From assembly GCA_017534885.1 (NCBI GenBank), contig JAFXVR010000029.1, positions 6,245 to 70,244 on the forward strand: DNA of 64,000 nt. The letters are read 5' to 3'. This document shows positions 1,377 through 45,190 of this stretch, piece after piece. The translations under genes and the position numbers were made by a program. How positions within the stretch are numbered: position 1 is the stretch's first letter; every line of letters begins with the position of its first letter. The stretch is from Clostridia bacterium (GTDB taxonomy: Bacteria > Bacillota > Clostridia > Christensenellales > Aristaeellaceae). The notes beneath the pieces were generated by a model, which worked only from the letters and a program-made list of their open reading frames with translations, did no database searches and had not been told where the DNA came from.

Positions 1377-2774
1377 CTACTTCTTCCCGGCGGGGCAGTG
1401 GTTCCAGGCGTACTCTATGGCGTTCTGGTGATCCTGATTGACCACATTGGTGCCGTGGGTGCGGGAGTTGGTGAAGTGGATGCAGACCTGGCCGGTCATG
1501 CCGTTGTTGGGCAGGGTGTCGCCGTCGGGATTGTGGGGAATGCCGTAGAGGGAGCAGGCGAAGGTGCGCTGGCCGATGGTCACCAGGGAGGGCCGGCGCT
1601 GCCAGAGGTTGCGGTCCTCGATCTCCTGGGGGGTGGAGACGCCGTACATGGCGCAGTAGCGGGCGGTGTCCTCCTTGGTGAGAGGCTCCACATCCGCGTG
1701 ATTGCCGCCGGCGGAGCGCTTCGCCCACCAGACGGTGCCCGTGTACACGTCGTAGACCTTCACGCTGGCGCCCCGCGGCCAGAGCTCCTGGATGCCGCCG
1801 GTGAACCAGTCGATCTTCTCGGCGGGATAGAAGGTCATGTCATAGTTGTCATTGTTGGGATAGGGCTGGGTGCCGAAGAGGGCGTGCTGGGTGGCCGCGT
1901 CCGCCACGCCGGTGGGATTCAGCCCGACGGTCTGCTGGAACTTGATGACCGCCTTTTCCACCGCGCTGGTGAAATTGCTGGTGATGGCGCCGGTGTAGTA
2001 GCCCTGCTCCTTCAGGGCCGTTACCAGCTTTTTCACCGCGTCGCCCGAATCGCCCCGGGCGAGGGTGGTGTAGGTGGCGTAGGGGCGGCTGCCGTCGATG
2101 GTCATCCAGGCGGTGTTGACCTGCCTGGAGGCGCTGCCGTCGCTGACCACCACAAAGACCGCGTAGCGCCCGTACTGGCCCGGGGTGACGGCCACGCGGC
2201 GGTCAGACGAATAGAAGTAGTTGACGGCCTGGCCGGAAGTGTTGTACAGGTTGTAGGCATAGGTGTACACGCCGCTTCCGCCGGAGACGGCCGGCCGGTC
2301 GATGAAGAGGCTTTTCCCGTCGTCGGAGAGGCTCCAGCTGAGCTGGCCCACACTCAGCGGATTGCTGTAGCCGCTGATGCGCTGCCAGCCGATGTTGCGG
2401 GTCTCCTGGCCCCAGGGATCGGTCACGGTGACAAACACGTTGTACAGGCCGTTGTCCCCGGGGGAGACAGCCACGCGGGCGGCGTCGGAGTAGAAATAGT
2501 TGATGGCCGCGCCCTCCGCGCTGTACAGGTTATAGGCGATGGACACCTCCGCGTTGCTCCAGCAGGCCGGGCGGTCGATGAAAAAGCTCTTCCCGTCGGC
2601 GGAGAGCTCCCAGGTCAGGCTGTCCTCCACCCAGAGCTTTTCTCCGCCCTCCTCCAGGTCGCGCAGGAGCTCATCCAGGAGGGAGGGGCTCTCGGCAAAG
2701 GCCGCGCCTGCGATGATGACGCAGGCCAGCAGGGCCAGGGTCCGGATCAGTTTCCGCTGACATCGTGTTGACAT
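1377..2774 (-). CDS. secreted peptidoglycan-binding protein: 2 copies of the window-specific ~85-aa module, a PG_binding_1-like segment and a conserved Cys/His C-terminal domain
   Basis: Track ORF 1377..3113 trimmed to the ATG at 2774 (MSTRCQRKLIRTLALLACVIIAGAAFA signal peptide). The upstream 113 aa are only the translation of repeat element A2. The PG-binding segment reads GDSGDAVKKLVTALKEQGYYTG...FQQTVGLNPTGVAD. The C-terminal ~150 aa are shared with 3233..6157. Confidence 0.75.
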   Translation of the reverse strand: MSTRCQRKLIRTLALLACVIIAGAAFAESPSLLDELLRDLEEGGEKLWVEDSLTWELSADGKSFFIDRPACWSNAEVSIAYNLYSAEGAAINYFYSDAARVAVSPGDNGLYNVFVTVTDPWGQETRNIGWQRISGYSNPLSVGQLSWSLSDDGKSLFIDRPAVSGGSGVYTYAYNLYNTSGQAVNYFYSSDRRVAVTPGQYGRYAVFVVVSDGSASRQVNTAWMTIDGSRPYATYTTLARGDSGDAVKKLVTALKEQGYYTGAITSNFTSAVEKAVIKFQQTVGLNPTGVADAATQHALFGTQPYPNNDNYDMTFYPAEKIDWFTGGIQELWPRGASVKVYDVYTGTVWWAKRSAGGNHADVEPLTKEDTARYCAMYGVSTPQEIEDRNLWQRRPSLVTIGQRTFACSLYGIPHNPDGDTLPNNGMTGQVCIHFTNSRTHGTNVVNQDHQNAIEYAWNHCPAGKK

Positions 2775-12236: not shown

Positions 12237-13229
12237 ATGATGAGAAAGCTTTTGTGCATGCTGCTCAGCCTGTGCCTGATTCTCGGCTCGTCGGTGATGA
12301 TCCGCGCGGAAGCGCCGGTCAGCCTGGATGAGCTGATGGAGGATATCGAGAGCGAGGCGGAGCTCGACAAGGATCTGTCCGTCGCGCCGCTGAAGTGGGA
12401 GCTCAGCGCCGACCGCCGCTGCGTGCACATCACCCGGCCCACGGTCTACGGCGCCGTGCACTACACCGTGGCCTTCAACATTTACAGGGAAGACGGCACC
12501 TCGGTGAGCTATTTCTACGCCTATGAGGACAAGGTGACCTTCACCGCGGGCACCTCCGGCGTCTTCAACGTGTTTGTGGTGGTCACCGACACGGACACCG
12601 GCGCCACCGACACCCAGAACACCGGCTGGCTCTCCATGATCGGGCCCATCGAGCCGCTGATGGTGGGCACCGCGGTCTGGGAGATCTCCTCGGACAAGTC
12701 GACCATCACTGTCAACAAGCCCACTGTCCTGGGCGGCAGCGGCGATTACAAGGTCGCCTATGTCTGCTATGACGACCAGGGCGGTTTCGTGGACGCCCTC
12801 TACAGCGAGGCGGCCTCTGTTGACTTCACCCCCGGCTATGAGGGGAAATTCATTGTGTTCATCACCGTCACCGACAACCAGACCGGCGAGACCTATGCCC
12901 AGAACACCGGCTGGAACAAGCTGGGCGGCACCGATCCCGAGCCCTACACCCCCATGACCGTCGGCACCCTCTCCTATGAGGTCAGCGCCGACGGCAAGTC
13001 CATCTTCATCGACCGCCCGGACATCGCCGGCGGCAGCGGCCAGGCCATCGTCGCCTACAACCTCTATGACGACGCCGGCAATGTGGTGCTCTACTTCTAC
13101 TCCGAGGAGATCCGCGTCGCCATGACCCCCAAGGCCACCGGCACCTTCTGCGCCTTCGTCACCGTCACCGACATCATCACCCGCGAGAACAGCACCCAGA
13201 ATACCGGGTGGCAGGCGCTGACGGAGTGA
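12237..13229 (+). CDS. secreted protein made of three copies of the window-specific ~85-aa module
   Basis: Start trimmed to the ATG at 12237 (TAAGGAGGAA RBS; signal peptide MMRKLLCMLLSLCLILGSSVMIRA). The acidic helix VSLDELMEDIESEAELD follows, then 3 modules (LKWELSADRR.., AVWEISSDKS.., LSYEVSADGKS..). Confidence 0.75.
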   Translation: MMRKLLCMLLSLCLILGSSVMIRAEAPVSLDELMEDIESEAELDKDLSVAPLKWELSADRRCVHITRPTVYGAVHYTVAFNIYREDGTSVSYFYAYEDKVTFTAGTSGVFNVFVVVTDTDTGATDTQNTGWLSMIGPIEPLMVGTAVWEISSDKSTITVNKPTVLGGSGDYKVAYVCYDDQGGFVDALYSEAASVDFTPGYEGKFIVFITVTDNQTGETYAQNTGWNKLGGTDPEPYTPMTVGTLSYEVSADGKSIFIDRPDIAGGSGQAIVAYNLYDDAGNVVLYFYSEEIRVAMTPKATGTFCAFVTVTDIITRENSTQNTGWQALTE

Positions 13230-13728: not shown

Positions 13729-15918
13729 ATGAAGAAATTCCTCGCCGCCCTGACCGCCCTGATTCTGCTCTTCACCTGCTGTCTGGCGGAGACAGCGGTC
13801 GACCTGGACGCGCTGCTGGACGAAATCGAAGCGGCGGCTGATGAAGAGATCGAGAAGATCACGGACGCGATCATCTTCACCAAACCCAGCTTGACGGCAA
13901 CCTTCTACACCACCTCCGAGGAATGGAACAGCGAAAGCAACCACATCGCGAATTATCCTGCTCTGCACAGCCTGCTCGGGGGTGAACCCACGGCTGTCTG
14001 CGAGGACGAAAGCGAGTATTTCGACATTGAGATTCGTACCAGCGATGTGGCCTATCTCGCGACCTATAATATCGCTTTGGTCCTGACGCCCAAGGGGAAG
14101 CTTCCGGAGGCGGCGGTGGGCGTCCACACCTTCACCGTCCGGGTGGACTGGGGCGGACTGACCGCGTCCTTTGAGGTGCGCGCCGAGGTGCTCTCCTATG
14201 ACGGGCCGGCGCTGACCGCCATCACCAACCCGGATACCATTGCCGCGAAAACCAATGAGCGCTTCTTTCTGACCATCACGACGGATCCGGAAGAGTGGTC
14301 CTATCCCGGCATGGAAATCCATTATGGCGTCCAGATCGGTTACCCCGACATGCTGTATGTCAGCAGCAGCGCCCCCGCAGCTCTTGGGCCTGTCCGCGGC
14401 TTCTGCGTTTCCAAACCGGGCGAATACAAGGTGACCCTCATCGCGAAAGCGTGTATGCCTGACGCTCCAAATTGCGTCTTTGATGTCGAAAAGACGGTGA
14501 CGATCACAGCGACGGAAGGCACTGAAACGGAGGGCGTCGTCCTGAGTCTGGAGGAGATGAACAACACGCTCTACGCGCCCTTTTCGCTGAACACCATCGG
14601 CAGCCTGGAAGTCATGAACTTCGCAGAGCTGGTTGAGCAAGGGCTGACGGAGCCCACCATCACCTTCACCCTCGGAGAGGGCTGCCCGGAGCTGGTTTCC
14701 AATTATATGTCTTACATCACGCCCGTGATGAAGGTCGCGATGATCGGGGTCAATTTCAAGCTGCCCGAGGGCGTGAAAACCATTCCCATGGAAATGGCCG
14801 GCGACTACAGCGCCGTCATGCATGTCACCTACGGCGAATTGACCGCTGACCTTCCCATCCGCTTCTCCATCGGGAAATGCGACGCGCCGATGCCCTTCCT
14901 GGTGGGCGTGCCGGAGGCGGTGACCATCAAAGCCGGCGAGCCCTATATCCTGACCCTGAATCCTTATCCCGCTGACTGGTCCTGGCCGGGCATGTACCTG
15001 CTCTACACCTTCACAGACAGCTCCCAGGTGATTTATTACCAACCTCTCGGGGACAACCGCTATGTCCTGAACTGCGGCATTCCGGGTGAATATGACGCGC
15101 TGGTCAACATTGATATCTACTCCGACGGCCTCTATGTCCAGTGCTACCACCAGATCAGCTATCCCTTCCATCTGACCGTGGTGGACGGCGACGCCCCCGA
15201 ACCCACCCCGACGGATGAGCCCGAGCCCACCGATGAACCCGAACCCACGCCCACCGGCGAGCCTGAACCGACGGATGAGCCCGAACCCACCGATGAACCC
15301 GAACCCACCCCCACGGACGAGCCCGAGCCCACCGGTGAGCCCACCGAGCCGCTGACCATCGCGGAGACCGAGGCGGTGCACGAGATCAGCGAGGACGGCA
15401 AGTCCATCTACATCGACAAGCCGACCATCAGCGGCGGCGTCGCGCCCTACACCATCGCCTACAACTGCTATGACGCTGAGTCTCAGCCCGTCAATTACTA
15501 CTATTCCGACGACGACCGCACCGCCATGACCCCCGGCTACAACGGCCGCTTCAACGTGTTTGTGGTGGTCCGTGACAGCGCCGGCGCGGAAGCCCAGATC
15601 GACACCGGCTGGCTCGACCTGACCGGCTATGAGACCCTTCCGCTGAAGGTGGAGGAAGAAGCCGCCGTCTGGGAGCTCAGCGAGGACGGCAAGTCGATCT
15701 ACATCAACAAGCCCACCATCAGCGGCGGCACCGGCACCTACACCATCGCCTACAACTGCTACGACGCGGAGTCGAAGCCCGTCAACTATTACTACTCCAG
15801 CGACGACCGCACCGCCATGACCCCCGGCTACGCAGGCAGATTCTGCGTGTTTGTGGTGGTGAGCGACGGGAAAGAGGAAGTGACCATCAATACCGGATGG
15901 GTGGAGATGGGTGAATAA
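13729..15918 (+). CDS. secreted multi-domain surface protein: two novel ~230-aa internal modules, a PE/PT linker and two ~85-aa modules
   Basis: Start trimmed to the ATG at 13729 (AAGGAGG RBS; MKKFLAALTALILLFTCCLA). The upstream part of the track ORF is the translation of repeat B2. The acidic helix is VDLDALLDEIEAAADEE. The linker is PEPTPTDEPEPTDEPEPTPTGEPEP... The C-terminal modules closely match those of 17329..19416. Confidence 0.75.
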   Translation: MKKFLAALTALILLFTCCLAETAVDLDALLDEIEAAADEEIEKITDAIIFTKPSLTATFYTTSEEWNSESNHIANYPALHSLLGGEPTAVCEDESEYFDIEIRTSDVAYLATYNIALVLTPKGKLPEAAVGVHTFTVRVDWGGLTASFEVRAEVLSYDGPALTAITNPDTIAAKTNERFFLTITTDPEEWSYPGMEIHYGVQIGYPDMLYVSSSAPAALGPVRGFCVSKPGEYKVTLIAKACMPDAPNCVFDVEKTVTITATEGTETEGVVLSLEEMNNTLYAPFSLNTIGSLEVMNFAELVEQGLTEPTITFTLGEGCPELVSNYMSYITPVMKVAMIGVNFKLPEGVKTIPMEMAGDYSAVMHVTYGELTADLPIRFSIGKCDAPMPFLVGVPEAVTIKAGEPYILTLNPYPADWSWPGMYLLYTFTDSSQVIYYQPLGDNRYVLNCGIPGEYDALVNIDIYSDGLYVQCYHQISYPFHLTVVDGDAPEPTPTDEPEPTDEPEPTPTGEPEPTDEPEPTDEPEPTPTDEPEPTGEPTEPLTIAETEAVHEISEDGKSIYIDKPTISGGVAPYTIAYNCYDAESQPVNYYYSDDDRTAMTPGYNGRFNVFVVVRDSAGAEAQIDTGWLDLTGYETLPLKVEEEAAVWELSEDGKSIYINKPTISGGTGTYTIAYNCYDAESKPVNYYYSSDDRTAMTPGYAGRFCVFVVVSDGKEEVTINTGWVEMGE

Positions 15919-17328: not shown

Positions 17329-19416
17329 CTATTCCCCCAGATCATACCACCCGGTATTGATAATGATCTGCTCCTCCCCATCGCTCACCACCACAAACAC
17401 ACAGAATCTCCCCGAGTACCCCGGTGTCATGGCGGTGCGCCACTCATCGGAATAGTAATAGTTCACAGGATTGGAATCCGTGTCATAGCAGTTGTAGGCG
17501 TAGGTGTACTGGCCGGTGCCGCCGCTGACTGTGGGGCGGTTGATGAAGATGGAGCGGCCGTCGGGGCTGATCTCGCTGACAGCCACCTGCTCCTGCACGG
17601 TCAGGGGCTGGGCCTCATAGCCGGTCAGGTCGAGCCAGCCGGTGTCGATCTGCACCTGGGCCCCGGCGCTGTCCCTCACCACCACGAACACATTGAAGCG
17701 GCCGTTGTACCCGGGGGTCATGGCGGTGCGGGCGTCGTTGGAATAGTAGTAGTTGACGGGATTGGAGTCCGCGTCGTAGCAGTTGTAGGCGATGGTGTAG
17801 GGCGCGACGCCGCCGCTGATGGTCGGCTTGTCAATGAAGATGGACTTTTTGTCCGGGCTGATCTCGTGCACGGCCTCGGTCTCGGTGACGGTCAGGAGCT
17901 CCAGCTCTTCGGTATCGCCCTCCGTCACGGTGACTTTCACATACTTGACGGTGTAGGCCAGGGCAATGTAGCCGTCCTCCGTCTCGGCGTAGATTTGCAT
18001 GGAGACGCCGAAGCGGAATTCTCCGCACTTGCGGAAGACCACCTTGTAGGACATGTCGCCCCACTCGGAGGAGAGATCATTCACGATGCAGGAATAGGGG
18101 TCGTCCTCCGGCGCGTGATAGTTTGCGGTAAGCTGAATGTCCGGGTGCGACCAGTCCGGCGGATCGGGCTCCACGTCCACAAACCAGCTTTCACCCAGCT
18201 CCAGCTGAATGGCGTCGGGCACACCGCCCACGCCCAGCTCTCCCAGGGGAACGCCGTCATAGGGCAGGACGGTCATCCGGACCGGGATCTCGGCCCTTGC
18301 GCTGCCCCAGGTGAGGGTCAGCACGTCCTCATAGGTACCGGCGCTGTCGGCCGGCATGGTCCAGTAATCATCCATCCCTTCCCAGCGGGGACTCACAAAG
18401 AGGATGCTGGAGCTTTCCACATTGGCTTCAAACCAGATTTTGCCGCCGGTGCCGCGGAAGCTGGCGGTCATCTGCCCGCCATAAGCTTCCCGCAGGTTCT
18501 GGCCGTTGAGGATCTCAATATAGTGGTCATGGGCGTCCTGGGCGGTCTCGTAGGTCGTCCAGCTCAGGGCGTCCCGGCGCAGGATGAACTCGTTTTCGAG
18601 GGGCTTGTCCGCGACCTCCACATGTGCGTCCTGGCTGACTGTGAAGGCGATCCTGTCCGTGCCGTTGTACGTGCTCCAGGCCAGGAGGGAGAAGGTGAGG
18701 TCATAGCTGCCCGGCTTGGTGAACCAGAAGCTGATCTTCCGGTTGTCGACCCATTCGGTTTCCACATCGTCGTAGGCGCTGCTGTCCTCAAAGCCGACAC
18801 TGCTGTACAGCGTGAGGCCATCGAAAGCCCAGTCCGGCGGATTGGGGGCCACATCGACCTCCCACTTTTCGCCCACGGTCAGGTTCACCGATTCCGGCAC
18901 GCCGCTCAGTCCGGTGGGCATGCCGCAGTCGTACACCGTGGCGATGATGGGCAGGACTCGGGTGAGGGGGCCCCAGGTGATGGTGATCTCCGCAAAATGC
19001 TCGCCCGCGGACTCCCGGGGGAGGTTCTGGCCCTCCTGCCAGCGGTCGCTCACCAGCCTGGCCTCGATAAAGCACCTTTCCAGGTCCGGGTTGACGCGGA
19101 CAGCCACATCAAACTCGAAGAAGCCGCCCGTTCTGGTGACGGTGACGGTGGGCTCCCCGCCGTACGCCTTCTTCAGCGCGGTGTAGTTGGTGATCTCGTC
19201 GCCCTGCAGATAGTTTTCGTCCGACGTGGTGAAGAAGACGTCGTCCATGGACCCGCGGAGCAGGTAGATCTGATCTGCGCTGCGCTTGAGGTCCTCCTCG
19301 GCCTCCGCCTCAATCTCGTCCATCAGGGCGTCCATCAGGGAGTTTTCCGCCGCGGCAAAGGCGGTCAGCGCCATCAGCAGCAGCATGGAAAGAATCAGCG
19401 CCAGCAGTTTCTTCAT
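17329..19416 (-). CDS. secreted multi-domain surface protein, inverted paralog of 13729..15918
   Basis: AAGGAG RBS and signal peptide MKKLLALILSMLLLMALTAFAAA. The acidic helix is SLMDALMDEIEAEAEED. It has the same architecture as 13729..15918 but lacks the PE/PT linker. The last ~190 aa are nearly identical to that gene. Confidence 0.75.
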   Translation of the reverse strand: MKKLLALILSMLLLMALTAFAAAENSLMDALMDEIEAEAEEDLKRSADQIYLLRGSMDDVFFTTSDENYLQGDEITNYTALKKAYGGEPTVTVTRTGGFFEFDVAVRVNPDLERCFIEARLVSDRWQEGQNLPRESAGEHFAEITITWGPLTRVLPIIATVYDCGMPTGLSGVPESVNLTVGEKWEVDVAPNPPDWAFDGLTLYSSVGFEDSSAYDDVETEWVDNRKISFWFTKPGSYDLTFSLLAWSTYNGTDRIAFTVSQDAHVEVADKPLENEFILRRDALSWTTYETAQDAHDHYIEILNGQNLREAYGGQMTASFRGTGGKIWFEANVESSSILFVSPRWEGMDDYWTMPADSAGTYEDVLTLTWGSARAEIPVRMTVLPYDGVPLGELGVGGVPDAIQLELGESWFVDVEPDPPDWSHPDIQLTANYHAPEDDPYSCIVNDLSSEWGDMSYKVVFRKCGEFRFGVSMQIYAETEDGYIALAYTVKYVKVTVTEGDTEELELLTVTETEAVHEISPDKKSIFIDKPTISGGVAPYTIAYNCYDADSNPVNYYYSNDARTAMTPGYNGRFNVFVVVRDSAGAQVQIDTGWLDLTGYEAQPLTVQEQVAVSEISPDGRSIFINRPTVSGGTGQYTYAYNCYDTDSNPVNYYYSDEWRTAMTPGYSGRFCVFVVVSDGEEQIIINTGWYDLGE

Positions 19417-26640: not shown

Positions 26641-27816
26641 TTATTTTGATGGATAATAATTCCCATAGATGAAGTAATGCAGCGCCTCAATATTCGTCTG
26701 CCAGTTCTTTGTACTGAGGGTCACCACGCTGGAGCCGGATTCGGTGTGGGCGTAGGAGTAGGTTTTGTCCATGGGGATGCGGAACTGCTGGAAGACCTCG
26801 CCGCCCTCCTGCAGCCTGCTCACCATGTCGGTGCGCATCACAGTCATCACCAGGCTCATCACGGTCTGGCCGTTCATGTCGGTGATCATGTAGGGCAGGG
26901 CGGAGGACACCAGGTCCATCAGCTTGTTGAGGTTCAGGTCCTGCAGCACCTTGGCGGCCAGCAGCTCCAGCAGGTGCCTCTGGCGCTGGGTGCGCACAAA
27001 GTCGTTGTCGATGCCGCGCAGGCGGGCGTACATCAGCGCCTGAATGCCGTCGCAGTGCACCACATACTTTTCGGTCTTGGGGATGCTCTTGTTGACGGGC
27101 AGGGGATCGCGGCTGGCGTTGCCCTTCACGTCATAGGTCATCTTCTTGCCGTTCTTTTTGAGGTAGGCGTTGATGGCGTTGGCCTCGATGCGCGTCACGT
27201 CGATGTCGATGCCGCCCAGGCTGTCGATGATCGACGCCACGCCGTAGAAGTTCACCGCCACATAGTGATCTACGTTCAGATCAAAATTGTGGTTGATGGT
27301 GCGCATGGCCAGCTGGCCGCCGCCCCGGTTGTAGGCCGCGTTCAGCTTGGCGCGGCTGCGGTAGCCGGGAATCTCCACATACAGATCCCGCAGGAAGCTG
27401 GACAGGGTCACCGCGCCCGTCTCCGTGTTGATGGACAGCAGGATGTTGGTGTCGCCGTGCAGCAGGTTGGAATCAGCCCGGATGTCGGTGGCATGGGTGT
27501 CCACGCCGATCAGCAGGATGTTGATCACATGGGAGGGCAGGTTGGGGTTGATCTCGAGGTCATTCGGGTTAACGCTCTCGTCCCGCTCGAGGTTTTCCAG
27601 GTTGTCAATGGTCTCCTGGACGGTGTCCTCCTCGAAAAAACTGTCCCAGTCGAAGTCGTCGGCGTCAAAGTCCGGCAGCTCCTCCTCGTCCAGCTCATCC
27701 AGGTTGACGTCCTCCACGATGATGGTCAGGTCGTCCTCCTCATCCTCCGCCGCCGCGCAAACCACAGGCAGGCAGATCACCAGCGCCAGCACCAGCGCCA
27801 TCAGCCGTTTCAGCAT
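26641..27816 (-). CDS. LytR-CpsA-Psr (LCP) family cell-wall glycopolymer ligase
   Basis: Start trimmed to MLKRLMALVLALVICLPVV (GGAGGG RBS). LCP core: INILLIGVDT...GDTNILLSIN...SFLRDLYVEIPG...KLNAAY..GG..LAMRTINHNFDLNVDHYVAVNF.G...IDSLGGIDIDV. Confidence 0.85.
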   Translation of the reverse strand: MLKRLMALVLALVICLPVVCAAAEDEEDDLTIIVEDVNLDELDEEELPDFDADDFDWDSFFEEDTVQETIDNLENLERDESVNPNDLEINPNLPSHVINILLIGVDTHATDIRADSNLLHGDTNILLSINTETGAVTLSSFLRDLYVEIPGYRSRAKLNAAYNRGGGQLAMRTINHNFDLNVDHYVAVNFYGVASIIDSLGGIDIDVTRIEANAINAYLKKNGKKMTYDVKGNASRDPLPVNKSIPKTEKYVVHCDGIQALMYARLRGIDNDFVRTQRQRHLLELLAAKVLQDLNLNKLMDLVSSALPYMITDMNGQTVMSLVMTVMRTDMVSRLQEGGEVFQQFRIPMDKTYSYAHTESGSSVVTLSTKNWQTNIEALHYFIYGNYYPSK

Positions 27817-27986
27817 GCTTGTCCCTCCGCTTGTCATCATTTGGGCATACAGCCACAAGTATATTATAGCCGGAAGTGGTGGGGAATGCAAGGCGGGGGG
27901 AAGGAATGAATAATCAATACTGAAGACTGAAGACTGAAGAATTTAAGCGGCTGAGGTTGGAGGCTGAAGGAAGCTGAAGCCATCCC

Positions 27987-40857: not shown

Positions 40858-43770
40858 ATGAAGCGTCTGTTTTGCCTGCTGATGGCGCTCTCTCTGCTGA
40901 CCTTCACCGTTTCCGCCGAGGCGCCCCTGAGCCTGGACAGCCTGATGCTGGAAATCGAGGAGGAGGTGAAGGAGCTGTCCGTGGACGCGGTGTCCTTCGA
41001 GATCAGCGAGGACGGCCAGTCCATCTTCATCGATCGGCCCGAAGTCACCGGGGCGGAGGAGTACACCATCGCCTACAATATCTATGACGCGGACTCCAAC
41101 CCCGTCAACTATTTCTATTCCTTAGAGGAGCGCGTGGCCGCCACCCCGGGCTACGGCGGTCTCTTCAACGTGTTCGTGGTGGTCACGGACACCGCCACCG
41201 GGGAGCAGGACATCCAGAACATCGGCTGGCAGACCCTCTTATGGCCGCTGGCCGACAGCCTGGAGGTGGGCCGGGCCACCTATGAGGTCAGCCCGGACCG
41301 GCAGTCCGTGTTTGTGGACAGGCCGGCCATCGCCTGCGCCTCGGGCTCGGTGACCATCGCCTACAATATTTATGACGCCAACTCCAATCCGGTCAACTAC
41401 TTCTACTCCACCCAGAAGCGGGTGGCGGCCACGCCCGGGTATGACGGGCGGTTCAATGTGTTCATCGTGGTGACGGACACGGGCACCGGCGAGCAGGACG
41501 TGCAGGACATCGGGTGGATCGATCTGGGCGGGGAGGCCCAGCCCACGCCCACGGCCACGCCCACGCCCACCCCGACACCTACGCCTACCCCCACCCCGAC
41601 GCCCACGCCCACGGCCACGCCCACGCCTACGCCGACACCAACCCCGACACCCACGCCCCAGACCTGGCCGGCGGTGGTGAACGGCATCCGCTACGAGCTG
41701 GTGAACGGCCGGGTCACGGTGACAGGCTTTAACGGGGGCGTGACCGGGCTGCAGTTTGAAGACGAGATCTACGGCCGGCCGGTGGAGGTCATCGGCGACA
41801 AGGCCTTTGAGGGCAGATCAGTCCTCAGCGGCTCTGTGGTCCTACCCTCCGGGCTCAGGGAGATCGGCGTCGGGGCGTTCTGCAACTGCACAGGCCTGAC
41901 CGGCGGCCTCATCATCCCCGACGGGGTGGTTTCCATCGACGACAGCGCCTTCGAGGGGTGCAGGGGCCTGACCTCCCTGCGCCTCGGCGCGGGCCTGAAA
42001 ACCATCGGCGCCAAGGCCTTCTATGCGCACTTGAACAGCAGAACCAACGAAAGGGAAACGAGCCTGACCGGCGGCCTCATCATCCCCGACGGGGTGGTTT
42101 CCATCGGCAACAGCGCCTTTGAGGGGTGCAAGGGCCTGACCGGCGGCCTCATCATCCCCGACAGCGTGGAGACCATCGGCAACAGAGCCTTTGAGGGGTG
42201 CAGGGGCCTGACCTCCCTGCGCCTGGGCGCGGGCCTGAAAACTATTGGCTATAACGCCTTCTACTACACCGGCCTGACCGGCACCCTGGATATCCCCGGC
42301 AGCGTGGAGACCATCGGCATCTGGGCCTTCGGCAGCTGCACCGGTCTGACCGGCGTCAGCTTCAGCGAGGGCCTGAGGGAGATCGGCGCCGGAGCCTTTG
42401 GCTGGTGCAAGCAGCTGTCCGGTCACCTCACCTTCCCCTCCACCCTGGAGACGATCGGCAACATGGCTTTCCAGTATTGTACAGGCATCACGGAGGTGAC
42501 GCTGAACGAGGGCCTGCAGACGGTCGGCGACAGTGCTTTTGATCACTGCGAAAAGCTGAGCGGAACGCTGAAGACGCCGGGCAGCCTGCAGTCCATCGGC
42601 GCCAATGCTTTCAGCTACACCGGCCTGACCGGCGTCAGCTTCAGCGAGGGTCTGAAGGAGGTCGACGGCTTCAGCAACTGCGAAAACCTGTCCGGTCTTA
42701 TCACCTTCCCCTCCACTGTAGAGAGCGTCAAAGACAACGCTTTCTCCGGATGCGCCGGCATCACGTGGGTGACGCTGAACGAGGGCCTGAAGGCCATCGG
42801 CGACAGCGCGTTTCAGGCCTGCACGGGCCTGACCGGAGTCAGCTTCAACGGCACCCTGCGGAAGATCGGCGCCTCCGCGTTTGCCGACTGCACAGGGCTG
42901 AGCGGCAGCCTGAACCTGCCCGGCAGCCTGAAGGAGCTGGGCGGGAAAGCGTTCAGGAACTGCGCGGGCCTGACCGGCGGCCTGAAGCTGCCCGGCAGCC
43001 TGAAAAAGCTCGGCGCGTACGCCTTTGAGAACTGCGCGGGCCTGACCGGCGGCCTGAAGCTGCCCGGCAGCCTGACAGAGCTGGGCGAGTACGCCTTCAG
43101 CGGCTGTACCGGCTTTAACGGCGCCCTGACCCTTTCCTCCGGCATGGAAAATGTTCCCAAATACGCCTTCGCGGGCTGCGGCTTTACCGCGCTGAAGCTG
43201 AACGAGGGCCTGCAGACCATCGGAGAAGGCGCCTTCTCCGGCTGCGCCGATATGGCCGGCGCGCTGACCCTGCCCTCCACCCTGACCGACATCGGGAAAA
43301 CGGCCTTCAAGGACTGCTCGGGCTTCACCGGCACCCTGACCATCCCCGAGGGCATGACCCGGGTGAACCCGAGCGTCTTTGAGAACGCCAGCGGCCTGAC
43401 CGCCCTGAGCCTGCCGGACACGCTGACCGCCGTCGACGCCAGCGCCTTCCGGAACTGCACGGGTCTGACCGGCGAGCTGCGCCTCCCGTACTCGGTGAGC
43501 TGGATCAACAACGAGGCCTTCTCCCACTGCACGGGCCTGACCGGCGAGCTCTACCTCCCGGACTCGGTGAAATGGGTCAACGACGAGGCCTTCTCCCACT
43601 GCTCCGGCTTCACCTCCATGCGCCTCAGCCGGAACACGCAGTCCATCGGCAGCTATGCCTTCGCTTACTGCACCGGCATGACCGGCACCGTGACCATCCC
43701 CTACAGCTGTACCGTCAACCCCAACGCTTTCGACGAAACCCCCGTCACCCTCGTGCGAAACCCGATCTGA
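40858..43770 (+). CDS. 970-aa secreted surface protein: two ~85-aa modules, a TP linker and a long BspA-type LRR array
   Basis: Signal peptide [20 protein letters not shown] and acidic helix [17 protein letters not shown]. It has 2 modules, a (TP)n linker and then more than 25 LRR_5-like units (..[19 protein letters not shown]..). Confidence 0.8.
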
Positions 43771-43828: not shown

Positions 43829-45190
43829 ATGAAGCGACCATTTTCCCTCCTGCTGGCCCTCTGCCTGCTGCTGACGCTCCCGGTTTCCGCCGAGGCGCCC
43901 CTGAGCCTGGACAGCCTGATGCTGGAAATCGAGGAGGAGGTGAAGGAGCTGTCCGTGGACGCGGTGTCCTTCGAGATCAGCGAGGACGGCCAGTCCATCT
44001 ACATCGACCGGCCGGCGGTGACCGGGCCGGAGGAGTACACCATCGCCTACAATATCTATGACGCGGACTCCAACCCCGTCAACTATTTCTATTCCTTAGA
44101 GGAGCGGGTGGCCGCGACGCCGGGCTACGGCGGGCTCTTCAACGTGTTTGTGGTGGTCACGGACACCGCCACCGGGGAGCAGTGCGTTTCCAACATCGGC
44201 TGGCAGACCCTGTCCTGGCCGCGGGCCAACAGCCTGACGGTCGGCAAGGCCACCTTCGAGGTCAGCCCGGACCGGCAGTCCGTGTTTGTGGACAGGCCGG
44301 CCATCGCCTGCGCCTCGGGCTCGGTGACCATCGCCTACGATATTTATGACGCCAACTCCAATCCGGTCAACTACTTCTACTCCACCCAGAAGCGGGTGGC
44401 GGCCACGCCCGGGTATGACGGGCGGTTCAATGTGTTCGTCGTGGTGACGGACACGGGCACCGGCGAGCAGGACGTGCAGGACATCGGCTGGCAGACCTTA
44501 GGCGACCCGGTTCCGCCGGTGCAGGAGGACGACCCGTCGGACTACGACTACAGGGCCTTTGGCGACTATGTGGTGATTTACGGCTACCACGGGAGCGGGG
44601 TGGATATCGTCATTCCCTCCTATATCGAAGGCCAGCCGGTCCGGGAGATCGGCGATCACGCCTTCGCCGGCAACGAGAAGCTGACCGGCCATGTTACCCT
44701 GCCCTCCACCCTGGAGATCATCGGCTGGGAGGCTTTCAACGGATCCAGCCTCACGGGGGTGACGCTGAACGAGGGCCTGAAGGTCATCGACCACAGCGCC
44801 TTCAGCTTCTGCGAGCATCTGGCCGGCCATCTCGCCTTCCCCTCCACCTTGGAGAAAATCGATAACAACGCTTTTGATTGCTGCGTCGGCCTCACGGGGC
44901 TGACCTTCAACGAGGGGCTGAAGAGCATCGGCCAGTGCGCCTTCAACTGGTGCTGGGATCTGTCCGGCCATCTCACCTTCCCCTCTTCCTTCGAGGAAAT
45001 CGGCGACTACGCGTTCAATGAGTGCGTCAGCCTCACGGGCCTGACCTTCAACGAGGGCCTGATGAGGATCGGCGCCTACGCCTTCCTGGACTGCCAGGGC
45101 CTGACCGGCACCGTGACCATCCCCCAGGGCTGCGACGTGGGCGAAGGGGCCTTCGACCTGACTGAAGTCAACGTTGTGTACAAAAACTGA
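43829..45190 (+). CDS. 453-aa secreted surface protein: two ~85-aa modules and a short BspA-type LRR array
   Basis: The N-terminal ~220 aa are almost identical to 40858..43770, with the same signal peptide and helix. The C-terminal LRR_5-like units read [31 protein letters not shown]. Confidence 0.8.
   Translation: MKRPFSLLLALCLLLTLPVSAEAPLSLDSLMLEIEEEVKELSVDAVSFEISEDGQSIYIDRPAVTGPEEYTIAYNIYDADSNPVNYFYSLEERVAATPGYGGLFNVFVVVTDTATGEQCVSNIGWQTLSWPRANSLTVGKATFEVSPDRQSVFVDRPAIACASGSVTIAYDIYDANSNPVNYFYSTQKRVAATPGYDGRFNVFVVVTDTGTGEQDVQDIGWQTLGDPVPPVQEDDPSDYDYRAFGDYVVIYGYHGSGVDIVIPSYIEGQPVREIGDHAFAGNEKLTGHVTLPSTLEIIGWEAFNGSSLTGVTLNEGLKVIDHSAFSFCEHLAGHLAFPSTLEKIDNNAFDCCVGLTGLTFNEGLKSIGQCAFNWCWDLSGHLTFPSSFEEIGDYAFNECVSLTGLTFNEGLMRIGAYAFLDCQGLTGTVTIPQGCDVGEGAFDLTEVNVVYKN

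What the first reader, a model, noticed from the sequence alone, without database searches (positions are those of the whole stretch)
40858..41000. Conserved acidic helix directly after the signal peptide in all six module-bearing proteins
Right after the predicted signal-peptide cleavage region, each protein has a near-identical amphipathic acidic stretch:
- [21 protein letters not shown] (40858 and 43829)
- AEAPVSLDELMEDIESEAELD (12237)
- AETAVDLDALLDEIEAAADEE (13729)
- AAENSLMDALMDEIEAEAEED (17329)
- AESPSLLDELLRDLEEGGEKL (1377..2774)

The other secreted proteins in the window (LRR-only proteins, the SH3b protein and the giant WG-repeat protein) lack it.

A conserved element at the mature N-terminus that occurs only in one paralog family suggests a shared sorting, docking or pro-peptide signal. 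It is unlikely to be chance similarity.
Basis: seen in the sequence. Interest (0 to 1): 0.6.

Follow-up and report, generated by a model that had tools for sequence, protein, structure and literature searches.

The report
Shared acidic helix tag after signal peptide
About 55 secreted proteins of one uncultured gut Clostridia species start their mature chain with the same short acidic helix (L-D-x-L-M-x-E-I-E); it looks like a lineage-specific docking or sorting tag, but its partner and function are still unknown.

Summary
All six window proteins have a cleavable-type signal peptide (SP) and then, 4-5 residues after the predicted cut, the core L-D-x-L-[M/L]-x-[E/D]-I-[E/D].

Genome-wide, 55 open frames carry this leader, where shuffled sequence gives about 1. 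It always sits directly behind an SP. Fifty of the 55 also carry the ~90-aa FN3/Ig-like module, which this scan already described on this window (e1-3859352). In four of those the modules lie 450-1500 aa downstream. The other five belong to a second Ig-repeat family, so the tag is not strictly module-exclusive.

Conservation is at protein level:
- Synonymous codons vary.
- Upstream DNA is not conserved.
- A syntenic ortholog from another species keeps the pattern.

The leader profile finds only this family among 1.84 billion representative proteins. The module is absent from 400 genomes of the same taxonomic family.

AF2 predicts a short amphipathic helix that does not pack against its own protein. 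In form it resembles eukaryotic LD motifs (LDxLLxxL).

I found no SecA2/SecY2, cohesin, SLH or recurrent neighbouring gene.

My best reading, at about 0.4, is a flexible N-terminal docking or retention tag. The rivals are an export or pro-peptide aid, and simple inheritance. It is a new variant of a known kind and moderately interesting.

The parts
40858..40917 (+). Protein A (970 aa; 2 modules + LRR_5): signal peptide [20 protein letters not shown], predicted cut after VSA
   Evidence: Translation. n/h/c organisation and AXA-like site. LRR_5 domain.
40918..40977 (+). Protein A: mature N-terminal acidic amphipathic helix [20 protein letters not shown] (core LDSLMLEIE = 40933-40959)
   Evidence: PSSM score 42.1, starting 2 aa after the SP end. 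Matches the DNA pattern.
43829..43891 (+). Protein B (453 aa; 2 modules + LRR_5): signal peptide MKRPFSLLLALCLLLTLPVSA
43892..43951 (+). Protein B: helix tag [20 protein letters not shown]
   Evidence: PSSM score 42.1. AF2 on the mature N-terminus gives a helix at residues 6-13 with pLDDT about 70; the modules have pLDDT >90.
12237..12308 (+). Protein C (330 aa; 3 modules): signal peptide MMRKLLCMLLSLCLILGSSVMIRA
12309..12368 (+). Protein C: helix tag EAPVSLDELMEDIESEAELD
   Evidence: PSSM score 43.0.
13729..13788 (+). Protein D (729 aa; modules at the C-terminus): signal peptide MKKFLAALTALILLFTCCLA
13789..13848 (+). Protein D: helix tag ETAVDLDALLDEIEAAADEE; the first module starts 544 aa from the start codon
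   Evidence: PSSM score 32.8. Module positions.
19348..19416 (-). Protein E (695 aa; modules at the C-terminus): signal peptide MKKLLALILSMLLLMALTAFAAA
19291..19347 (-). Protein E: helix tag ENSLMDALMDEIEAEAEED; the first module starts 508 aa from the start codon
   Evidence: PSSM score 37.6. AF2 of mature E gives a helix at residues 3-23 with pLDDT about 40, not packed, while the rest is at 70-90.
2694..2774 (-). Protein F (465 aa; 2 modules + PG_binding_1 + C-terminal domain): signal peptide MSTRCQRKLIRTLALLACVIIAGAAFA
2634..2693 (-). Protein F: helix tag ESPSLLDELLRDLEEGGEKL, the variant with L in place of I
   Evidence: PSSM score 25.8. The syntenic ortholog P0101 from another species has DSPLLEAIWAELEGLSEKPL at this position.

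Best explanation
The element is a portable N-terminal tag. Signal peptidase I is predicted to cut after A-x-A. The mature protein then begins E-x(3-4)-L-D-x-L-[M/L]-x-[E/D]-I-[E/D], followed by further acidic residues. This segment forms a two- to three-turn amphipathic helix on a flexible tether. L, L/M and I make one hydrophobic stripe, and D/E residues flank it.

I infer that the stripe docks in trans into a hydrophobic groove lined by basic residues on a partner that has not been identified. That partner could be a cell-surface scaffold or receptor, or a processing or folding factor at the membrane-wall interface. Docking would give about 55 otherwise mosaic surface proteins a common retention or assembly address. 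Their functional heads include LRR_5, caspase-like, legumain-like, solute-binding-like and PG-binding domains.

Shown here: the motif, its fixed position, its distribution, protein-level constraint, its helical amphipathic character, and the lack of confident packing in cis. Inferred: that signal-peptidase cleavage occurs, that the helix docks in trans, and that docking serves retention or sorting.
For: 1. Specific residues are conserved, not just charge. L 52/54, D 50/54, I 52/54 and L/M 48/54 carry about 3.5-4 bits each, while the flanking columns carry about 1-1.5 bits.
2. The hydrophobic moment peaks at 100 degrees per residue: 0.45, against 0.25 for shuffled sequence.
3. The position is fixed. 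The core starts 4-5 aa after the predicted cut in 49 of 52 leaders. The tag stays N-terminal whatever follows it: modules directly (34 proteins), a 130-320 aa insert (12), modules more than 450 aa away (4), or another family altogether (5).
4. Selection acts on the protein. Invariant columns use synonymous codons. Third-position identity is what codon bias predicts. Upstream DNA is unrelated apart from the ribosome-binding site. A syntenic ortholog at 72-76% nucleotide identity keeps the pattern although only about half its residues are identical.
5. It marks a subset of the secretome, about 55 of roughly 300 SP-like proteins, and the window's other secreted proteins lack it.
6. AF2 predicts a helix that is not confidently packed on its own protein. 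pLDDT is about 70 in B and about 40 in E, next to domains at 80-97.
7. In form it matches LD motifs, which dock through their hydrophobic face with the acidic residue pairing to basic residues (PMC7703752). LD.L[LM]..[LI] matches 39 of 55 leaders, against 45 matches in the remaining 3.47 million residues of open frames.
8. [quoted passage not shown]
Against: - No partner was identified. No gene family recurs next to the family genes. There is no cohesin or SLH. There is only one SecA and one SecY.
- The small accessory signal peptidase on C3 has an ortholog in a relative that lacks the family.
- Only pLDDT was available from AF2, not contacts, so docking in cis is not excluded.
- The paralogs are related by descent. 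Many metagenome homologs may come from the same species: contig L132 shares its 120-bp repeat with this genome at 98-100%. Independent evolutionary samples are therefore few.
- Acidic mature N-termini are common in this organism. Thirty-one of 255 other SP-like proteins have net charge <= -5 in their first 20 residues. Part of the signal is therefore generic.
Confidence: 0.4

Rival explanations
1. Export or processing aid (pro-region). The strongly acidic segment just after the SP keeps the early mature region compatible with translocation and helps correct orientation and signal-peptidase cleavage of large beta-rich precursors. It may be trimmed off afterwards. It acts in cis during secretion and has no later role.
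For: - The position is strictly fixed at 4-5 aa after the predicted cut, with +1 = E in 48 of 52 leaders.
- Net charge over the first 20 mature residues is -6.6, against -1.5 for other SP-like proteins. Acidic N-termini also occur in unrelated secreted proteins of this genome, for example window 26641-27840 and 99-683.
- Established knowledge, from memory and not checked in the paper library: positive charges early in the mature region block Sec export, and short acidic synthetic pro-peptides raise secretion in Lactococcus.
Against: - The near-invariant residues are L, D and I in a helical register, not net charge. A pure charge effect would not fix them.
- Only about one sixth of the secretome uses it.
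- There is no second translocase or dedicated peptidase to give specificity.
Confidence: 0.27
2. No separate function. The helix is simply part of an ancestral 5' cassette (SP plus the first residues) copied during a recent lineage-specific expansion, and it is retained because too little time has passed for it to decay.
For: - The family is confined to one narrow lineage: 0 of 400 genomes of the same taxonomic family and 0 of 200 for the DNA pattern.
- The SP h-regions are also similar.
- Many 'homologs' may be pangenome copies of the same species.
Against: - The residues immediately before and after the core have diverged to near background (about 1-1.5 bits), while the core columns hold 3.5-4 bits.
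- Paralogs are only 29-65% identical across the leader.
- Synonymous sites vary.
- The tag persists on at least four different downstream architectures and in an ortholog from another species.
Confidence: 0.15
3. Cis-acting latch or cap. The helix folds back onto the FN3/Ig-like modules, or another domain, of the same protein, for example to cover a binding face until it is released.
For: - The tag co-occurs with the module in 50 of 55 leader-bearing proteins, even when the two are far apart in sequence.
- In the commonest architecture only about 6 residues separate the helix from the first strand of module 1.
Against: - AF2 confidence for the helix is about 70 in B and about 40 in E, next to well-predicted domains.
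- Five leader-bearing proteins have no module.
- Two complete module-bearing proteins have no leader: C5 (1283 aa) and C47 (530 aa).
Confidence: 0.1
4. Nucleic-acid-level element. The conserved stretch is an mRNA feature, such as an internal Shine-Dalgarno-like pause site about 30 codons in, that couples translation to targeting.
For: GAG-GAG and ATG-GAG-GAG codons create GGAGG in 25 of 54 motif regions.
Against: - GGAGG is absent from more than half the copies, whereas L, D and I are near-invariant.
- Third-position identity at conserved residues (0.71) is what codon bias alone gives.
Confidence: 0.03

Closest known systems
Eukaryotic LD motifs (paxillin family, consensus LDxLLxxL)
   Same: - Near-identical consensus and register: L-D-x-L-[L/M]-x-x-[L/I].
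- A short amphipathic helix in a flexible region.
- The hydrophobic face is flanked by acidic residues.
- The motif is better conserved than its flanks.
- In solved LD complexes the hydrophobic side chains dock on a hydrophobic patch and the Asp pairs with basic residues (PMC7703752).
   Different: - LD motifs are cytosolic, eukaryotic and internal, and they bind FAT/CH-type domains.
- This element is bacterial, extracytoplasmic and always at the mature N-terminus behind a signal peptide.
- It carries additional conserved E/D at +6 and +8, and no LD-binding domain is known here.
- The resemblance is one of form, probably convergent, and not homology.
AST domain of serine-rich-repeat adhesins (accessory Sec substrates)
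   Same: A specific segment directly after the signal peptide of surface proteins that is needed for routing to a particular export pathway (PMC6973325).
   Different: - AST domains are 30-40 aa and rich in Ala/Ser/Thr.
- They follow an SP of about 90 aa and require SecA2/SecY2/Asp proteins.
- Here the SPs are 20-27 aa, the segment is acidic and Leu-rich, and the genome shows one SecA and one SecY.
YSIRK/G-S signal peptides of Gram-positive surface proteins
   Same: A conserved short motif in the leader of a subset of surface proteins that directs a specialised secretion site (PMC12445088).
   Different: YSIRK lies inside the signal peptide at the start of the h-region and is removed with it. 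This motif lies after the cleavage site and has no sequence similarity. Pfam found no YSIRK match.
Dockerin-cohesin tagging of cellulosomal and surface proteins in Clostridia
   Same: A shared small module on many mosaic secreted proteins, including LRR_5 proteins in other Clostridia, that docks them to a scaffold. Some LRR_5 homologs in other organisms carry dockerin or SLH where these proteins carry the leader and modules (Pfam columns).
   Different: Dockerins are domains of about 70 aa with duplicated Ca-binding loops, usually C-terminal. No dockerin or cohesin was detected here. This tag is a single helix of 9-16 aa.
Lipoprotein export signal (LES) of Bacteroidota surface lipoproteins
   Different: LES follows the lipidated +1 Cys of SPII lipoproteins in a diderm phylum. 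These leaders have AXA sites, no canonical lipobox, and belong to a Christensenellales-like Clostridia genome.

Membership tests
Sec type I (SPase I) signal peptide followed by a mature-region motif | Basic n-region, uncharged hydrophobic h-region, small residues at -3/-1, total length about 18-30 aa | tested here: met
   All 52 aligned leaders have K/R in the n-region, an h-region of at least 10 aa, -1 = A 43/G 6/S 3, -3 = A/T/V/S/G/I/C, and length 20-27 aa. This rests on a heuristic; SignalP was not available.
Lipoprotein (SPase II) signal | Lipobox L-[ASTVI]-[GAS]-C at the end of the h-region, with Cys as +1 | tested here: not met
   None of the six window leaders has a canonical lipobox; their Cys residues sit within LALC-LLL, LSLC-LIL or FTCC-LA contexts. 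A few genome or metagenome members have L-x-G-C several residues upstream of the AE junction, but this is not general.
YSIRK/G-S signal peptide (PF04650) | YSIRKxxxGxxS at the n/h boundary | tested here: not met
   No Pfam hit, and the motif is absent from the aligned leaders.
Accessory Sec (SecA2/SecY2) substrate with AST domain | Presence of a second SecA and SecY | tested here: not met
   One SecA_DEAD match over the cut-off and one SecY in the 93%-complete genome.
Accessory Sec (SecA2/SecY2) substrate with AST domain | SP of about 90 aa and an Ala/Ser/Thr-rich segment of 30-40 aa after it | tested here: not met
   The SPs are 20-27 aa and the segment is rich in Glu/Asp/Leu. Definition taken from PMC6973325.
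LD motif (paxillin type) | Consensus L-D-x-L-L-x-x-L forming an amphipathic helix | tested here: met
   LD.L[LM]..[LI] matches 39 of 55 leaders. Column counts: L 52, D 50, L 46, M/L 48, I/L 54 of 54. AF2 predicts a helix. The hydrophobic moment peaks at 100 degrees.
LD motif (paxillin type) | Binds an LD-binding domain (FAT, parvin CH, etc.) in the eukaryotic cytosol | not testable with these tools
   No binding assay or complex prediction was available. The extracytoplasmic bacterial context argues against membership; the resemblance is functional form only.
Dockerin (PF00404) / cohesin (PF00963) system | Duplicated Ca-binding dockerin domain on the cargo, and cohesin domains in the genome | tested here: not met
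   No dockerin hit in the six proteins. No cohesin in the genome.
SLH- or sortase-anchored surface proteins | SLH domains, or a C-terminal LPXTG signal plus sortase | tested here: not met
   No SLH in the genome. Two sortase matches, one just over the family cut-off (27.3 bits against 26.6) and one under it (25.2 bits). The family proteins end without LPXTG/TM tails.
Cleaved pro-peptide | Removal of the segment from the mature protein | not testable with these tools
   This needs N-terminomics. No conserved second cleavage motif is evident after the helix.

The most novel reading that the evidence does not exclude
The helix is the cargo half of a previously undescribed extracellular docking system of a Christensenellales-like gut bacterium. 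An LD-type N-terminal helix plugs about 55 mosaic surface proteins (roughly one sixth of the secretome) into a scaffold or receptor that has not been recognised. This would be functionally analogous to dockerin-cohesin but built from a 9-residue linear motif exposed by signal-peptidase cleavage. A bolder variant is that the tag mimics host LD motifs.
Probability: 0.2. Interest if true: 0.75.

Novelty: new variant of a known kind. Interest (0 to 1): 0.48.

Why it matters
Leader-adjacent sorting motifs such as YSIRK, AST and the lipoprotein +2/LES rules are among the few handles we have on how monoderm bacteria decide where exported proteins go. All known examples come from cultured model groups.

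Here an uncultured gut or rumen Clostridia lineage has put one short, sharply conserved linear motif at the mature N-terminus of about 55 mosaic proteins. These make up 3.4% of the genome and include BspA-type LRR, caspase-like, legumain-like and solute-binding-like heads.

If the motif is a docking or retention tag, it would define a new and very compact way to address a whole surface proteome. It would also give a simple sequence rule for predicting that surfaceome, and a small peptide tag that can be tested in laboratory Gram-positive hosts. If it is only an export enhancer, it is still a natural, strongly selected example of one.

Tried and rejected
- **Pfam and NCBIfam on the six proteins.** Nothing covers the leader or the module. 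The only hits are LRR_5 and PG_binding_1 plus faint Ig-like matches.
- **Partner by gene neighbourhood.** I clustered the two genes on either side of all family genes. No family recurs apart from LRR proteins and spurious frames over REP elements. The family genes are scattered over 30 contigs.
- **Dedicated export or anchoring machinery.**
  - One SecA and one SecY.
  - Two SPase I genes.
  - No SLH and no cohesin.
  - Two sortase matches, one marginally over the cut-off and one under it.
  - The small SPase on C3 has a 52%-identical ortholog in G004, which lacks the family, so it is not co-distributed.
- **Tethering argument from the solute-binding-like member (C46).** Its neighbours are not ABC permeases, so I dropped the argument.
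- **DNA-level cassette, gene conversion or SD-like pause.** Rejected.
- **A C-terminal motif-like tail on the leaderless module protein C47 (...LTDLIMEELESNAK).** Its PSSM score is 9.5, within the range reached by shuffled sequence, so I treat it as chance.
- **PDB sequence search with a consensus helix.** The only hit was a weak match to N-WASP WH2 repeats (E 0.027), which is not significant.
- **First related-loci scan with the B N-terminus.** It found nothing in genome contigs.
- **Earlier notes of this scan on shared leaders in other genomes.** None concerned this motif.
Full report
**What is there.** The window is G000:C53:6245-70244, from a 3.36-Mb, 63% G+C, 93%-complete genome in 71 contigs.
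- A 40858-43770 (+)
- B 43829-45190 (+)
- C 12237-13229 (+)
- D 13729-15918 (+)
- E 17329-19416 (-)
- F 1377-2774 (-)

Each starts with a basic n-region, a Leu-rich h-region and an AXA-like c-region. An acidic stretch with the quoted sequence follows. Pfam and NCBIfam recognise only the C-terminal heads: LRR_5 in A and B, PG_binding_1 in F. They match nothing in the leader or the repeated ~90-aa module.

**Genome-wide extent.** I laid the genome in the Python box and enumerated all open frames.
- An HMM built from the nine window modules finds 115 modules in 56 open frames. A tblastn-type search gives 111 matches.
- A 16-column PSSM built from the family leaders scores >=20 in 54 frames, against 1 in shuffled frames.
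- Every strong hit lies 0-4 residues after the end of a signal peptide.
- With the cut-off I used, 55 frames carry the leader. In 34 the modules follow directly. In 12 an insert of 130-320 aa comes first. In 4, including D and E, the modules lie more than 450 aa away at the C-terminus. Five have no module.
- Those five form a second family: 2345-aa, 983-aa and 758-aa (749-aa from the ATG) proteins plus two contig-end fragments. They share a different N-terminal domain and YQWQW-type Ig-like repeats.
- Six module-bearing frames lack the leader. Three are fragments. One (C41) has a degenerate version...SMIEDVVSEIE. Two complete proteins (C5, 1283 aa; C47, 530 aa) truly lack it.
- Leader-bearing proteins take up 3.4% of the genome. 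They make up roughly one sixth of a crude set of about 300 SP-like proteins.
- The window's other secreted proteins do not have the motif.

**Anatomy of the leader.**
- In 54 register-aligned copies the near-invariant columns are L (52), D (50), L (46), M/L (48), E/D (47), I (52) and E/D (52). This gives L-D-x-L-[M/L]-x-[E/D]-I-[E/D] at about 3-4 bits per column. The columns on either side hold about 1-1.5 bits.
- All 52 aligned leaders have an AXA-like site: -1 is A/G/S, and +1 is E in 48.
- The SPs are 20-27 aa long.
- The core begins 4 or 5 residues after the predicted cut in 49 of 52.
- The hydrophobic moment of the 11-mer peaks at 100 degrees per residue (0.45, against 0.25 shuffled), as expected of an alpha-helix.
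- On a helical wheel L, L, M/L and I form one stripe. D and E flank it, and the variable positions face away.

**Structure predictions.**
- AF2 on the mature N-terminus of B, with 31 paralogs as the alignment, gives two beta-sandwich modules at pLDDT >90. It also gives a short helix at residues 6-13 at pLDDT about 70, followed by a lower-confidence linker.
- Foldseek places the module pair among tandem FN3/Ig-like domains. I did not retest that note's specific Y_Y_Y assignment.
- AF2 on mature E gives a helix over residues 3-23 at pLDDT about 40, while the rest sits at 70-90.
- Only confidence values were available, not contacts. They indicate a helix-prone, flexibly attached segment that is not confidently packed on its own protein.

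**Is the conservation selection or mere descent?**
- Leaders are only 29-65% identical to each other overall.
- The invariant columns use synonymous codons: GAC/GAT 40/10, ATC/ATT 39/13, GAG/GAA 40/5.
- Third-position identity where residues agree is 0.71, which is what codon bias gives.
- The 200 bp upstream of the start codons share nothing but the ribosome-binding site.
- GGAGG occurs in only 25 of 54 motif regions.

A DNA cassette, gene conversion or an mRNA pause element therefore does not explain the pattern. The constraint is on the peptide.

Metagenome proteins that are 41-73% identical to their best paralog in this genome keep the SP plus motif. This evidence has a limit: one such contig (L132) carries this genome's 120-bp repeat at 98-100% identity, so it probably comes from the same species.

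A cleaner case is contig L133. It is syntenic with the F region at 72-76% nucleotide identity and so comes from another species. Its F ortholog is 71% identical overall and reads ...A-D-S-P-L-L-E-A-I-W-A-E-L-E-G-L-S-E-K.... About half the helix residues have changed, but the hydrophobic and acidic register is kept.

**Distribution.**
- A housekeeping gene in the window (MiaB) is 70-73% identical to genes in Clostridia/Christensenellales/Aristaeellaceae MAGs from animal guts.
- The module is absent from 40 relatives and from 400 genomes of the taxonomic family spanning 72 genera.
- A degenerate DNA pattern for the core hits 19 times in this genome and not at all in 200 family genomes. The reversed control gives 0.
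- A profile of SP plus helix, searched against 1.84 billion representative proteins, returns 100 hits. All hits that cover the whole profile belong to this family or to the second family. The others match only the generic SP part.
- One unrelated protein, P0128, has five internal LSQNDLDSLM repeats.

The tag is therefore a narrow, lineage-specific invention that has been heavily amplified.

**Search for machinery.**
- The genome shows one SecA and one SecY, so no accessory Sec system.
- It has two SPase I genes.
- It has no SLH and no cohesin. It has two sortase matches, one just over the family cut-off and one under it.
- The small SPase on C3 has an ortholog in a congener that lacks the family.
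- No gene family recurs beside the family genes, and these genes are scattered over 30 contigs.

No partner can be named.

**Interpretation.** Several features fit a short linear docking helix better than a generic acidic export spacer:
- the invariant hydrophobic residues in helical register, flanked by acids
- the flexible attachment
- the restriction to a subset of the secretome
- the persistence of the tag on unrelated downstream architectures

Its closest formal analogue is the eukaryotic LD motif (LDxLLxxL). That motif docks by its hydrophobic face onto a patch bordered by basic residues (PMC7703752). LD.L[LM]..[LI] matches 39 of 55 leaders, against 45 matches in the remaining 3.47 million residues of open frames. 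This is a likeness of form and not membership.

The fixed 4-5-residue distance from the cleavage site keeps an export or pro-peptide role alive as the main rival. So do the extreme net charge (-6.6 over 20 residues) and the fact that acidic N-termini occur on other secreted proteins here.

Among bacterial precedents, the AST domain (PMC6973325) and YSIRK (PMC12445088) show that leader-adjacent motifs can route surface proteins. Their defining features were tested here and are not met.

**Verdict.** The mechanism is unproven.

My odds are:
- docking or retention tag: about 0.4
- export or pro-peptide aid: about 0.27
- inheritance only: about 0.15
- cis latch: about 0.1
- nucleic-acid element: about 0.03

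It is a new variant of a known kind (leader-adjacent sorting or docking motifs) and of moderate interest.

Noticed in passing
G000:C70:3057-3317 (outside the window; loci L128/L129): One family gene (open frame of 997 aa) has its 5' end duplicated in tandem and in frame. Two copies of ribosome-binding site + SP + LDGLMEEIE lie 234 nt apart. The upstream copy reads through into basic junk (GRRRERTLSRLPKRQRG) before the real start. It looks like a recent duplication remnant.
   Followed up: partly
G000:C25:103372-110406, C60:5498-8494, C15:14425-16779, C39:56161-56760, C43:163452-164015: A second protein family uses the same SP + helix leader without the FN3-like module. After the leader comes a domain of about 130 aa (AKRFVESLALLPE...) and then many YQWQW(S/T)xDGxTW Ig-like repeats. 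The C15 member ends in the same C-terminal domain seen on some module-bearing relatives (P0021, P0036).
   Followed up: partly
It occurs at 98-100% identity on a metagenome contig whose genes are otherwise missing from this assembly. It is a useful species marker, and it shows that the assembly lacks some family members.
   Followed up: partly
G000:C47:26608-28245: A module-bearing protein without the N-terminal tag ends in ...FTLTDLIMEELESNAK, which resembles the motif. Its PSSM score is only 9.5, within the shuffle range, so this is probably chance.
   Followed up: yes
window 26641-27840 (-): A LytR-CpsA-Psr (LCP) family protein has a run EDEEDDLTIIVEDVNLDELDEEEL directly after its N-terminal hydrophobic segment. 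Strongly acidic juxtamembrane or N-terminal stretches are a wider habit of this organism's exported proteins.
   Followed up: partly
P0128 (protein from the representative library, 526 aa): An unrelated Lys-rich protein from another organism carries five internal repeats of ALSQNDLDSLMNGINS. They resemble the tag and, from memory, the LSQxEIDxLL CheY-binding peptide of FliM. It is another case of this kind of acidic amphipathic docking peptide.
   Followed up: no
G000:C46:82031-83860: A family member carrying an SBP_bac_8-like solute-binding domain is not next to ABC permease genes. Its neighbours are an LRR protein and a hydrolase. The binding domain seems to be used as an orphan surface head.
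   Followed up: partly
G000:C3:55742-58149: A small accessory SPase I lies about 1.7 kb from a borderline sortase-like gene. It has a full-length ortholog in only one of 12 same-genus genomes. This may be a sporadic pilus or sortase-type locus.
   Followed up: partly
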